This document shows, one piece after another, positions 8,441-10,650 of a stretch of DNA of 21,372 nt (positions within the stretch are counted from its first letter, which is position 1; every line of letters starts with the position of its first letter). The stretch is taken from IMG/VR virus record IMGVR_UViG_3300044712_000982, positions 1 to 21,372 of that record. The stretch is one strand, 5' to 3'. The position numbers were made by a program, and so were the translations under genes. The notes below the pieces were generated by a model. It was not told the origin of the DNA. It made no database searches and saw only the letters and a program-made list of their open reading frames with translations. The stretch is from a virus.

Positions 8441-8596
8441 CTACGCGGCGTGACGGCGCACTGATTCCAAGCCCGCCCGAACCAACTCGCGGACAGCCGC
8501 CGCCGTCGGCACGTGACGGGCCTCCGCGTACGCCTCGATCGCAGCCTTCAGCTCGGTGCTCATGCGCACCAGCATCGCCGTGTCGAGTCGTTCCAT
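8441..8596 (-). CDS. Ribbon-helix-helix (CopG/Arc-like) regulator, 51 aa
   Basis: Hand translation MERLDTAMLVRMSTELKAAIEAYAEARHVPTAAAVRELVRAGLESVRRHAA: beta strand, helix, turn, helix. TACGCT -10 (8604-8609) lies 7 nt before the ATG. Below the ORF-track size cutoff. Confidence 0.75.
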   Translation of the reverse strand: MERLDTAMLVRMSTELKAAIEAYAEARHVPTAAAVRELVRAGLESVRRHAA

Positions 8597-8674: not shown

Positions 8675-8759
8675 GCACTTCCGGTGCGAAGCCACCTCGG
8701 GTACTTCAAACTCCAAATTTGACCCATTCCCGAACCGGCAACCTTGACCTCGGAGGCGC
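8675..8759 (+). ncRNA. Y RNA-like unit 1, with an apical tRNA-Trp(CCA)-like anticodon stem-loop
   Basis: The 5' and 3' ends pair. GGTGCGAAG/CTTGACC Ro-type helix. Inner TCAAA-CTCCAAA-TTTGA (8706-8722). Lies upstream of Ro60. Confidence 0.75.
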
Positions 8760-8774
8760 AACAACTTCATACAC

Positions 8775-8845
8775 GCACCTTCCCGGTGCGCAGGTCCGGA
8801 CTTCTTCCGCTTGAAAAAAGCCGGACCACTTTGATCTCGGGAAGG
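8775..8845 (+). ncRNA. Y RNA-like unit 2, apical loop containing CTTGAAA (tRNA-Ser(UGA)-type anticodon loop)
   Basis: CCTTCCCG/CGGGAAGG terminal stem; GGTGCG/TTGATCT; GGTCCGG/CCGGACC inner stem. Confidence 0.75.
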
Positions 8846-8858
8846 AACGACATCGGGT

Positions 8859-8999
8859 GCGTGCCCGGTGCGAATGTCTGGACTTCTTCTCCTTTTAAGA
8901 GGGTGGTTGCGGGTTCGAGTCCCGCCGGTGACCTCGGTCGCTGTAGCTCAATGGCAGAGCGCCAAACGAAACGCCAGGCAGACTTGATCTCGGGCACGC
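8859..8999 (+). ncRNA. yrlA: YrlA-type Y RNA with a circularly permuted tRNA-Lys(UUU)-like domain
   Basis: GCGTGCCCG/CGGGCACGC stem and GGTGCGAA/CTTGATCT helix. T arm GCGGG-TTCGAGT-CCCGC (8909-8925), then a loop-closed 7-bp acceptor (8926-8943), then TA plus D arm GCTC-AATGGCA-GAGC (8944-8960). T-before-D order next to Ro60 defines YrlA. Confidence 0.9.
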
Positions 9000-9010
9000 T
9001 CACCAACGCC

Positions 9011-9044
9011 GCTCCCTCCCGCAGCCCAGCGAGAGGGAGTTTTT
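9011..9044 (+). terminator. Terminator-like hairpin that also sequesters the Ro60 Shine-Dalgarno
   Basis: GCTCCCTC..CGC/GCG..GAGGGAGT stem followed by TTTT, ending 1 nt before GTG 9046. Confidence 0.6.
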
Positions 9045-9045
9045 C

Positions 9046-10650
9046 GTGTCCAAATTCAACCGTCCCGGAACGCGCGTAGCCACCGGCAGTGGACCGATCG
9101 TCGCCGAGCGTACCCCGTCAACCGTCACGCACGAGGGTGGCGCCGGATACCTCCGCGATACCAAGAGTGAGCTGTTCCTTCTCGCGGTCAGCAACATGGT
9201 CGGAGAGAAGACCACATACGAAACGGCCGGCGACCGCGACGATCGGTACGCCACCCTGGTCCGGAAGGTGGCCGTGGATGACCCGGCGTGGATGCTCCAG
9301 TTCCTGCGCTGGCTCCGCACCGACGGCAACATGCGTTCGGCGTCACTCGTCGGTGCCGCGGAGTCGGTCAAGGCGCGCCTCGACGCGAAGCTCCCGTCGA
9401 TCCCCGCATACGAGGTTTCCGGATTCACGACGGACCGCGGCGTCGAGCGGACGATGATCGAAGTGGTGTGCCAGCGCGCTGACGAGCCGGGCGAGATGCT
9501 GGCCTACTGGACGTCGCGGTACGGCCGGAACCTGCCGAAGCCGGTCAAGCGCGGACTCGCCGACGCTGCGGCGCGGCTGTACACGCCGTACGCCCTACTC
9601 AAGTACGACACCGTGTCGCACGGAGTCCGGTTCGCCGACGTGCTGGAGTTGGCCCACGTCACCGGCACACACCCGTCGATCAAGGGGACGGAGCAGGGCG
9701 CGCTATTCCAAGCCGCGCTGGAGCGACGCCACGGCCGCGCCGAGATCACCCCGGTTCCGATGCTGCTGGCGAACGCGGCGCTGCGGAAGGGTGCCGCCGA
9801 GGATCCGTCGGTGCTGCTGGATGCGCAGCGGCTGCGCGAGGCCGGCATGACATGGGAGGACGTCCTCTCGCTTGCCGGACCGAGGTTCGACAAGGCGCGG
9901 CTGTGGACCGCCCTGATCCCATCGATGGGCTACATGGCGCTGTTGCGGAACCTGCGCAACTTCGACGAGTCTGGCGTGCCCGACGACGTAGCGCTCGGCG
10001 TCGCCGCGCGACTCGCAGACCCGGCCGAGGTGGCCAAGTCGAGGCAACTGCCGATGCGGTTTCTGTCCGCGCACAAGGCCGTGTCGTCGCTGCGGTGGGG
10101 CCACTACCTGGAGCAGTCACTCAACCACTCGCTCGGAAACGTGCCGACCCTCACCGGACGCACGCTCATCCTCGTGGACGTGTCCGGGTCGATGTCCTGG
10201 TCAATGTCGGACCGGTCGGAGCTCAACCGCGCCGAGTCGGCCGGGATCTTTGCGTCGGCGCTGGCGCTGCGGGCCGAGAACCCGACCATGGTGTGGTTCA
10301 ACGGCGTCTCCGGTCAGATTGCCGTGCCGAAGGGTGGCGCACTACTGCGGGTCGCACGGTCGATTCCACAGCCCGATGGCGGCACCTATACGGCGAACGC
10401 GCTGCGCTGCTGGTACGACGGGCATGACCGGGTCATCGTCGTCACGGATGAGCAGTACCACGGCGACAACCCGTCCGGCGCGATCCCGCAGTCGACTCCG
10501 ATGTATACATGGAATCTTGCTGGCCACCGGGCCGGCTCGACCCCGACGACGGCGAACCGGATGACATTCGGGGGGCTCACTGACGCGATGTTCCGACTGA
10601 TTCCCCTGGTCGAGTCCGGGCGTTCGGGGGTGTATCCCTGGCAGTCCTGA
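9046..10650 (+). CDS. rsr: Ro60 ortholog (TROVE plus vWA domain RNA-binding protein)
   Basis: 534 aa with TROVE motifs THEGGAGY, ELFLLAV, GNMRS, LLKY, MTWE, MGYMALLRNLRNF and RQLPMRFLSA; vWA MIDAS LILVDVSGSM...GGT...VVTDEQ. Confidence 0.95.
   Translation: MSKFNRPGTRVATGSGPIVAERTPSTVTHEGGAGYLRDTKSELFLLAVSNMVGEKTTYETAGDRDDRYATLVRKVAVDDPAWMLQFLRWLRTDGNMRSASLVGAAESVKARLDAKLPSIPAYEVSGFTTDRGVERTMIEVVCQRADEPGEMLAYWTSRYGRNLPKPVKRGLADAAARLYTPYALLKYDTVSHGVRFADVLELAHVTGTHPSIKGTEQGALFQAALERRHGRAEITPVPMLLANAALRKGAAEDPSVLLDAQRLREAGMTWEDVLSLAGPRFDKARLWTALIPSMGYMALLRNLRNFDESGVPDDVALGVAARLADPAEVAKSRQLPMRFLSAHKAVSSLRWGHYLEQSLNHSLGNVPTLTGRTLILVDVSGSMSWSMSDRSELNRAESAGIFASALALRAENPTMVWFNGVSGQIAVPKGGALLRVARSIPQPDGGTYTANALRCWYDGHDRVIVVTDEQYHGDNPSGAIPQSTPMYTWNLAGHRAGSTPTTANRMTFGGLTDAMFRLIPLVESGRSGVYPWQS

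What the first reader, a model, noticed from the sequence alone, without database searches (positions are those of the whole stretch)
8675..10650. Ro60 plus a tandem array of three Y RNAs, each displaying a different tRNA anticodon loop (Trp-CCA, Ser-UGA, Lys-UUU): candidate phage anticodon-decoy system
Seen in sequence: three end-paired units (8675-8759, 8775-8845, 8859-8999) share CCGGTGCG(A/C)A at the 5' end, TTGA(C/T)CTCGG at the 3' end, and an ACTTC motif just inside the inner stem. Their stems differ in sequence but keep pairing. Just after ACTTC, each has a heptamer with the canonical C-U-anticodon-A-A pattern: CTCCAAA (8711-8717, in a perfect 5-bp stem TCAAA/TTTGA), CTTGAAA (8810-8816, stem degenerate) and CTTTTAA (8892-8898, stem TTCTC/GAGGG). 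Units 2 and 3 place it at identical spacing (GGACTTCTTC-NN-loop). Established: bacterial and some phage Ro60 (rsr) genes lie next to Y RNAs. tRNA-Lys(UUU) is cut by PrrC, PARIS AriB and MazF-mt9, and tRNA-Trp(CCA) and tRNA-Ser are targets of several M. tuberculosis VapC toxins. Inference: the RNAs are a modular 'Ro handle plus variable anticodon payload' cassette that, stabilised by Ro60, titrates or senses host anticodon nucleases or other anticodon-reading proteins (synthetases, modification enzymes). I am not aware of a described multi-anticodon Y RNA array, but could not search.
Basis: partly seen in the sequence, partly recalled or inferred. Interest (0 to 1): 0.93.

Follow-up and report, generated by a model that had tools for sequence, protein, structure and literature searches.

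The report
Phage Y RNAs mimicking tRNA anticodon arms
A soil phage carries a Ro60 gene preceded by three small Y RNAs. In two of them, as in most relatives from actinobacteria and their phages, a hairpin drawn in the literature as a 'variable arm' has every sequence hallmark of a tRNA anticodon arm with a fast-changing 'anticodon'. What reads that arm is not known.

Summary
Confirmed: 8675-9000 holds three tandem Y RNAs just upstream of, and on the same strand as, a Ro60 (TROVE) gene in a 106-kb uncultivated actinophage. Covariance models built only from relatives return exactly these three units as their best hits.

Unit 3 is a YrlA whose core is a complete circularly permuted class-I tRNA. 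Rejoined in silico, it is called tRNA-Lys(UUU). The flagged hairpin is the stem-loop that Chen et al. 2014 drew as a 'V' arm.

In 150 unselected relatives this stem covaries and lies one 4-5-nt variable loop before the T arm. On a tree of 88 units, U33 never changes. C32, R37 and A38 are kept, and G36 goes with G37, while the triplet changed at least 54 times.

Unit 1 carries the same kind of hairpin (CUCCAAA). In unit 2, CUUGAAA is not presented in a hairpin. So two of the three 'anticodon displays' hold.

Arrays of 2-4 units and the anticodon-arm mimic are also the rule in actinobacterial genome contigs. Nothing points to a phage-specific decoy, and that function is untested.

The scan has reported Ro60/Y-RNA arrays on other DNA before (e.g. 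e1-3449518). Verdict: new variant of a known kind.

The parts
8675..8760 (+). Y RNA unit 1: short, YrlB-like. Ro60-binding stem plus one anticodon-arm-like hairpin.
   Evidence: Model R2, built from relatives only: 56.2 bits, E 2.7e-10. Model R1: 16.1 bits. Fold.
8706..8722 (+). Unit 1 hairpin: 5-bp stem and 7-nt loop CUCCAAA (C32 U33 CCA A37 A38 pattern).
   Evidence: Sequence. Fold. The same design is found in 24 other short units.
8777..8847 (+). Y RNA unit 2: short. Looks like an internally deleted paralogue of unit 3. CUUGAAA (8810-8816) is not closed by an anticodon-type stem.
   Evidence: R1 40.4 bits. R2 44 bits. Local fold. Shares the unusual GGACUUCUUC with unit 3.
8859..9000 (+). 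Y RNA unit 3: YrlA-type. Ro60-binding stem enclosing a circularly permuted tRNA-like module.
   Evidence: R1 129.5 bits, E 3.5e-29, full length. Rfam YrlA 40.3 bits on the core 8900-8968, below the gathering score of 69.
8887..8903 (+). Anticodon-arm mimic of unit 3: 5-bp stem (two G-U pairs) and 7-nt loop CUUUUAA. This is the 'V' stem-loop of Chen et al. 2014.
   Evidence: Covariation in 150 relatives. RNAalifold. ARAGORN reads it as the anticodon arm after in-silico de-permutation.
8904..8908 (+). Variable loop UGGUU. U48 pairs with A15 (Levitt pair).
   Evidence: The 15:48 pair is G:C in 70 and A:U in 49 of 130 relatives.
8909..8925 (+). T arm
8926..8943 (+). Acceptor-like stem: 7 bp, closed by a 4-nt loop.
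   Evidence: A 7-bp stem is the usual form in relatives.
8944..8961 (+). U8 A9, D arm and G26
9011..9044 (+). GC-rich hairpin followed by five U. Terminator- or attenuator-like, and its 3' arm overlaps the Ro60 ribosome-binding site.
   Evidence: Fold -21 kcal/mol, z -3.75. Not called by the consensus terminator scan.
9046..10650 (+). Ro60 (Rsr) homologue, 534 aa
   Evidence: Pfam TROVE 5e-18. PDB 9KOP/9L5Y, Thermus phage phiLo Ro60, E 6e-28. 40-60% identity to more than 500 actinobacterial and viral homologues.

Best explanation
This is a phage rsr operon: three Y RNAs, a terminator-like hairpin, then Ro60.

Shown here:
- Each RNA closes its ends into the family's Ro60-binding stem.
- Unit 3 is a YrlA whose effector module is a whole class-I tRNA in permuted order: anticodon arm, 5-nt variable loop, T arm, 7-bp acceptor-like stem closed by a loop, U8A9, D arm, G26. 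The Ro60 stem is joined at the 26/27 junction.
- Unit 1 keeps only the anticodon-arm-like hairpin.
- Unit 2 is a decayed copy without it.
- The anticodon-arm mimic is a selected feature of most actinobacterial and actinophage YrlAs. It is not a peculiarity of this phage.

Inferred:
- Ro60 binds the stem.
- As in M. smegmatis, RNase P opens the acceptor loop and CCA is added, leaving a nicked, Ro60-tethered, complete tRNA look-alike.
- The loop frame is kept (U33, R37, A38; U36-A37-A38 or G36-G37) because ordinary tRNA-handling proteins that touch the anticodon loop act on it. Candidates are the position-37 modification enzymes and possibly a synthetase.
- The identity of the triplet itself is not constrained.
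For: Identity of the units.

Geometry: the distance from the CUUC motif to the T stem peaks sharply at 18-19 nt. The Levitt pair 15:48 holds in 119 of 130 relatives, which fixes the 4-5 nt before the T arm as the variable loop.

Stem: 82% of cells are paired in an unselected set of 150. Pairs 30:40 and 31:39 show 55 and 48 double changes. The covariation score is 0.387 against 0.141 in shuffles, reached by 0 of 500.

Loop: U33 in 75 of 75, C32 in 63, R37 in 71 and A38 in 72. G36 is followed by G37 in 11 of 11, and U36 by A37 in 49 of 54. There are 25 distinct triplets.

Tree of 88 units with the loop excluded: position 33 changes 0 times and position 38 3 times, against 31 and 36 changes at positions 34 and 35 and 54 triplet changes. 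G36/G37 move together in 5-6 of 6 independent pairs.

tRNA finder: de-permuted unit 3 is called tRNA-Lys(ttt) by ARAGORN. 121 of 124 de-permuted relatives are called tRNA, against 76 of 124 when the arm is shuffled.

Public annotation: GenBank annotators labelled the 5' halves of such YrlAs as tRNA-Arg(tct) in Gordonia phage VanLee and tRNA-Ser(gct) in Streptomyces phage Alone3.

Against: - There are no expression data.
- The isolated hairpins are weak. Unit 1 folds at -0.9 kcal/mol. The minimum-energy fold of unit 3 prefers a 6-bp/8-nt-loop register. Neither beats shuffles, so the support is comparative only.
- The Rfam YrlA gathering score is not met (40.3 against 69 bits).
- About 40% of YrlA-type units (73 of 189) and Salmonella YrlA lack the hairpin, so some YrlAs work without it.
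- The sequences are related, and the G36/G37 coupling reaches only p about 0.03-0.06.
- Whether a helix joined at 26/27 lets the hairpin stack under the D stem was not modelled.
Confidence: 0.7

Rival explanations
1. One reading: the Y RNAs are Ro60-stabilised decoys or sensors. Each presents a different anticodon loop to anticodon nucleases of host defence or toxin-antitoxin systems, or to other anticodon readers, to protect phage translation.
For: The loop frame is conserved while the triplet turns over very fast. In 18 loci with two signature loops, the two triplets always differ, although only 1.5 identical pairs were expected, so this is not significant. tRNA-cutting defences and phage tRNA countermeasures are documented (PMC11464382, PMC12409363, PMC5175351). 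The Salmonella RNA-repair operon that responds to damaged tRNAs (PMC7790460, listed) includes rsr and the yrl genes, as I recall it. One Streptomyces phage group has an RNA ligase gene next to Ro.
Against: The same architecture is found in actinobacterial genome contigs and in M. smegmatis, so it is not a phage invention. GUU and GCU dominate the triplets. No nuclease or repair gene is consistently adjacent: 148 downstream genes were heterogeneous, and the window's neighbours are replication and recombination genes. Unit 2 fails the structural test. There is no cleavage, binding or abundance evidence.
Confidence: 0.12
2. Relic or strut: the arm is left over from the dimeric-tRNA ancestor of YrlA. 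It is kept only as a stable hairpin that helps the L-shape fold. Nothing reads the loop, and the triplet drifts neutrally.
For: The dimeric-tRNA origin model is published. The YrlA models align to real tRNA-tRNA junctions, including the first tRNA's anticodon arm. Positions 32, 33, 37 and 38 are the ones that shape a U-turn loop (established tRNA structure). The arm is absent from about 40% of YrlA-type units and from Salmonella YrlA.
Against: U33 shows zero changes across 88 units, against more than 30 at the neighbouring positions. This is stronger than a generic hairpin loop needs. The G36-G37 and U36-A37-A38 combinations match the recognition motifs of the position-37 modification enzymes rather than any folding rule (inference from established tRNA biology). 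CU...AA is about 500-fold enriched over background hairpins.
Confidence: 0.25
3. Unit 3 is a genuine permuted tRNA-Lys gene that is processed into a decoding tRNA.
For: ARAGORN calls the de-permuted sequence a 72-nt tRNA-Lys. It has a 7-bp acceptor stem. [quoted passage not shown]
Against: No tRNA is detected in the window as encoded. The Ro60 stem would stay attached at 26/27, and I know of no bacterial pathway that religates there. The unit lies beside Ro60 in more than 150 loci. The phage already encodes tRNA-Lys(UUU) among its 33 tRNAs. The triplet changes freely among close relatives.
Confidence: 0.03

Closest known systems
Mycobacterium smegmatis YrlA and YrlB (Chen et al. 2014, PMC4201824)
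   Same: Several Y RNAs lie just upstream of rsr on the same strand. YrlA is about 147 nt, with T arm, 7-bp acceptor-like stem and D arm in that order, and a further stem-loop before the T arm. It is bound by Rsr, cut by RNase P, and receives CCA. The reverse complement of the published YrlA-5' probe gives a 7-nt loop of the same CU...AA type.
   Different: Here there are three units and they are in a phage. The paper draws the extra stem-loop as a tRNA 'variable arm', with the Ro60 stem taking the place of the anticodon stem. I read it as the anticodon arm, followed by a normal 4-5-nt variable loop. There is no experimental evidence for this locus.
Salmonella Typhimurium YrlA, crystal structure 6CU1 (Wang et al. 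2018, bioRxiv 10.1101/312249)
   Same: An L-shaped tRNA mimic with tRNA-type tertiary pairs, including the Levitt pair, mounted on a Ro60-binding stem.
   Different: The paper states that this YrlA 'lacks the anticodon loop'. It has no hairpin before the T arm and a 6-bp acceptor-like stem, and it lies in the rtcBA repair operon. The Rfam model built on this type scores unit 3 below threshold.
Thermus phage phiLo Ro60 with Yrl1/Yrl2 (PMC12135203)
   Same: A phage-encoded Ro60, and the best solved-structure match for this protein (E 6e-28), with two Y-like RNAs upstream.
   Different: No anticodon term appears in that paper, and tRNA is mentioned only twice. Its proposed role is hijacking of host PNPase.
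Phage tRNAs that neutralise anticodon nucleases, e.g. T5 tRNA-Lys versus PARIS AriB (PMC11464382)
   Same: A phage-encoded RNA that carries a lysine-type anticodon loop.
   Different: Those are working tRNAs that replace the cut host tRNA. They are not Ro60-bound mimics, and no decoy action has been shown for any Y RNA.
Circularly permuted tRNA genes of the red alga Cyanidioschyzon merolae (own knowledge; alluded to in Wang et al. 2018)
   Same: The 3' half of the tRNA is encoded before the 5' half.
   Different: Those are matured through a circular intermediate into decoding tRNAs. Here the ends stay joined to a Ro60-binding stem.

Membership tests
Y RNA (Ro60-associated small RNA) | Encoded next to a Ro60/TROVE gene on the same strand | tested here: met
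   Units at 8675-9000 and Ro60 at 9046-10650, both on the + strand.
Y RNA (Ro60-associated small RNA) | The 5' and 3' ends pair into a long stem carrying the conserved Ro60-binding motif (GNCGAAN0-1G in Chen et al. 2014; 'CGAA motif' in PMC12135203) | tested here: inconclusive
   The stems are present and covary. The CGAA core is present in units 1 and 3. Unit 2 and most relatives have CGCA. The first G of the published motif is U here.
Y RNA (Ro60-associated small RNA) | Bound by Ro60 in vivo | not testable with these tools
   Needs immunoprecipitation.
YrlA (Rfam RF02553) | Reaches the Rfam gathering score (69 bits) | tested here: not met
   40.3 bits, local to model positions 22-89. tRNA-tRNA junctions in the same phage score 20-29 bits.
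YrlA (Rfam RF02553) | T arm, acceptor-like stem-loop and D arm in that order inside the Ro60 stem, with tRNA-type conserved nucleotides and the 15:48 Levitt pair | tested here: met
   A15:U48 in unit 3. 119 of 130 relatives keep G:C or A:U.
   129.5 bits, E 3.5e-29, model positions 1-142.
tRNA anticodon stem-loop signature | 5-bp stem, 7-nt loop, U at loop position 2, purine at position 6, followed by a 4-5-nt variable loop and the T arm | tested here: met
   Unit 3 meets all of these. Unit 1 meets the stem and loop features but has no T arm. Unit 2 does not meet them.
Canonical tRNA gene | Contiguous cloverleaf detectable by a tRNA finder, with an open acceptor end | tested here: not met
   ARAGORN finds none in the window. 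A tRNA is called only after in-silico de-permutation. The acceptor stem is closed by a loop.
Anti-defence decoy of anticodon nucleases | Binding to, or cleavage by, a nuclease and anticodon-dependent protection | not testable with these tools
   No linked nuclease or repair gene. Needs biochemistry and genetics.

The most novel reading that the evidence does not exclude
Ro60 operons of actinobacteria and their phages encode arrays of Y RNAs that use one constant Ro60 handle to present different, rapidly evolving anticodon loops. These loops serve as baits (decoys, sensors or substrates) for proteins that read anticodon loops, such as anticodon nucleases of defence and toxin-antitoxin systems. 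This would make Ro60 particles part of the conflict over tRNA integrity.
Probability: 0.15. Interest if true: 0.9.

Novelty: new variant of a known kind. Interest (0 to 1): 0.6.

Why it matters
The protein partner of the tRNA-like domain of bacterial Y RNAs has been unknown since 2014, and the published description says YrlA lacks an anticodon loop. Most actinobacterial and actinophage YrlAs in fact carry a selected anticodon-arm mimic. Its loops match the motifs used by position-37 modification enzymes (U36-A37-A38, G36-G37). This gives concrete candidates and cheap tests in M. smegmatis, Streptomyces and Gordonia phage systems.

It also supports the dimeric-tRNA origin of YrlA. And it explains why tRNA finders and GenBank records label the 5' halves of these Y RNAs as tRNA genes.

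Tried and rejected
- Rfam at gathering thresholds found nothing in the window.
- ARAGORN found no tRNA in the window.
- The consensus scan found no promoter or terminator.
- Single-sequence thermodynamics do not support the hairpins on their own.
- RNAalifold on 16 short units did not recover the hairpin, because MAFFT mixed stem registers. Model R2 is therefore frame plus sequence only.
- Within-array diversity of triplets: 0 identical among 18 pairs against 1.5 expected, not significant.
- A search for a conserved partner gene downstream of Ro60 in 148 loci found none. The upstream set was not scanned.
- PHROGs on 20 neighbouring ORFs found replication and recombination genes but no RNA-repair or nuclease gene.
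- Gene conversion from the phage's own tRNA-Lys is rejected. The stems differ, and the UUC/GRG stem base is family-specific.
- By eye, I saw no complementarity between the triplet and the 3' linker that held across relatives.
- The two Wolin-lab reviews (PMC6047535, PMC10870794) are not held. I could not check whether they already note the anticodon-like loop. The papers I could search do not.
Full report
WHAT IS THERE. The window is the first 21.4 kb of a 106,285-bp virus record with direct terminal repeats. It is GC-rich (66%) and carries 33 tRNA genes elsewhere in the genome. ORF 9046-10650 is a Ro60 homologue: Pfam TROVE 5e-18, best solved relative the Ro60 of Thermus phage phiLo at E 6e-28, and 40-60% identity to several hundred actinobacterial and viral proteins. 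The closest bacterial ones are from Micromonosporaceae. The closest cultured phages are 112-116-kb Streptomyces phages and Gordonia phages.

THE THREE UNITS. I built a covariance model from 12 related YrlA sequences, none from the window. A second model built from 16 short units of relatives scores unit 1 at 56.2 bits and unit 2 at 44 bits. Rfam's own YrlA model recognises only the T/acceptor/D core of unit 3, at 40.3 bits against a gathering score of 69. The units are therefore Y RNAs of the YrlA/YrlB kind. Arrays are the rule: 71 of 75 viral loci and 67 of 76 genomic loci have 2-4 such units upstream of Ro60.

WHAT THE FLAGGED HAIRPIN IS. Chen et al. [quoted passage not shown] Wang et al. 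2018 state that Salmonella YrlA 'lacks the anticodon loop'.

I collected 160 loci and examined every T arm preceded by the motif:
- The motif-to-T-stem distance peaks sharply at 18-19 nt.
- The usual layout is a 5-bp stem (UUCNN/NNGRG), a 7-nt loop, 4-5 nt, then the T stem.
- The last of those 4-5 nt forms the Levitt pair with D-loop position 15. It is G:C in 70 and A:U in 49 of 130 cases. The spacer is therefore the variable loop (commonest forms AGGUC and UGGUU), and the hairpin ends at position 43, which is where an anticodon arm ends.
- In an alignment of 150 units not selected for pairing, 82% of cells pair. The two variable pairs show 55 and 48 double substitutions. The covariation score is 0.387 against 0.141 in shuffles, reached by 0 of 500.
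- RNAalifold predicts the hairpin without any input from me.

THE LOOP. In 75 distinct perfect hairpins, position 33 is U in 75, position 32 is C in 63, position 37 is a purine in 71 and position 38 is A in 72. G36 is always followed by G37 (11 of 11), and U36 is usually followed by A37 (49 of 54). There are 25 different triplets. Background 5-bp/7-nt hairpins from the same loci show CU...AA in 0.13%, against 76 of 116 here. On a tree of 88 units built without the loop columns, position 33 never changes and position 38 changes 3 times. Positions 34 and 35 change 31 and 36 times, and the triplet changes at least 54 times. G36 and G37 change together in 5-6 of 6 independent pairs, never in opposite directions (p about 0.03-0.06). 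These are the rules of real anticodon loops (U-turn U33, purine 37, G37 after G36; established tRNA knowledge). The stem base UUC/GRG is specific to the family, so the arm evolves in place rather than being recopied from tRNA genes.

UNIT BY UNIT.
- Unit 3 has all the parts. When the pieces are rejoined in tRNA order in silico, ARAGORN calls a 72-nt tRNA-Lys(ttt). It does the same for 121 of 124 relatives, against 76 of 124 when the arm is shuffled.
- Unit 1 has a perfect 5-bp stem and the loop CUCCAAA. 24 other short units carry CU...AA loops in the same place. Short units are heterogeneous, however, and this hairpin is weak on its own.
- Unit 2 shares the odd GGACUUCUUC with unit 3 and looks like an internally deleted copy. 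Its CUUGAAA aligns with the loop consensus but has no closing stem, and the local fold buries half of it.

INDEPENDENT ECHO IN PUBLIC RECORDS. The annotated 'tRNA-Arg(tct)' of Gordonia phage VanLee and 'tRNA-Ser(gct)' of Streptomyces phage Alone3 lie inside YrlA units just upstream of the Ro-like gene (102.8 and 52.6 bits). tRNA finders took the arm for an anticodon arm. The YrlA models also align to genuine tRNA-tRNA junctions, from the first tRNA's anticodon arm to the next tRNA's D arm. This fits the published dimeric-tRNA origin model.

FUNCTION. Nothing here tests function. Several results argue against a phage-specific decoy:
- The design is equally common in actinobacterial genome contigs, and the same loop type is present in M. 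smegmatis YrlA.
- No nuclease or repair gene travels with the cassette.
- Some YrlAs lack the arm altogether.

[quoted passage not shown] I infer that the loop frame is kept because anticodon-loop enzymes act on it. The decoy or sensor idea stays open at low odds. Its literature premises are sound.

LIMITS. There are no expression data and no 3D test. The sequences are related to one another. Two relevant reviews could not be read. The scan has described Ro60/Y-RNA arrays on other DNA before.

Noticed in passing
L171:1254-1394 (Gordonia phage VanLee, NC_073474.1, about 65453-65593): The GenBank feature 'tRNA-Arg(tct)' (record 65454-65525) is the 5' half of a YrlA-type Y RNA (102.8 bits). A second unit lies at L171:1110-1239. 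This is probably a mis-annotation caused by the anticodon-arm mimic.
   Followed up: partly
L173:2269-2417 and 1921-2068 (Streptomyces phage Alone3); L175:2277-2413 and 1924-2069 (BRock): Two YrlA-like units lie upstream of the Ro-like gene. In Alone3 the annotated 'tRNA-Ser(gct)' overlaps the first. In both phages the Ro gene sits inside the tRNA array.
   Followed up: partly
L172:1038-1460 (Gordonia phage Trax): Three small 'hypothetical protein' CDS (genes 91-93, 43-50 aa) lie over Y RNA units found by the model. They are probably not genes.
   Followed up: no
L174:2756-3508 (Streptomyces phage JustBecause): A gene annotated as RNA ligase lies immediately upstream of the Ro-like gene, with a YrlA-like unit at 2517-2677. 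This is a possible link to RNA repair in that phage group only.
   Followed up: no
window 9011-9044: A strong hairpin (-21 kcal/mol, z -3.75) followed by five U. Its 3' arm is the Ro60 Shine-Dalgarno sequence. It could end most transcripts after the RNAs and mask Ro60 translation.
   Followed up: partly
window 8441-8596 (- strand): A 51-aa ORF with coding-type GC3, divergent from the Y RNA array. It has a weak PHROG hit (phrog_24852, 4e-5, unknown function). It may be a small regulator of the operon.
   Followed up: partly
G000 97436-100558 and 82803-82876: The phage has 33 tRNA genes, including Trp-CCA, Ser-UGA and Lys-UUU. The anticodon loops of its own tRNA-Lys(UUU) and tRNA-Trp(CCA) have the same heptamers as units 3 and 1, but their stems are unrelated.
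   Followed up: partly
loci L004-L170, region downstream of Ro60: The gene after Ro60 differs from locus to locus: hydrolases, transporters, resolvase, integrase, portal, Mrr-type nucleases. The Y-RNA/Ro60 cassette behaves as a self-contained, mobile module.
   Followed up: partly
short units in many loci, e.g. L031:1247, L034:1247, L067:1245: A second recurrent class of short Y units carries UUC-UUNNGGU-GAA, a 3-bp stem with a 7-nt loop of the U-U-NNG-G-U type. This class was not analysed further.
   Followed up: no
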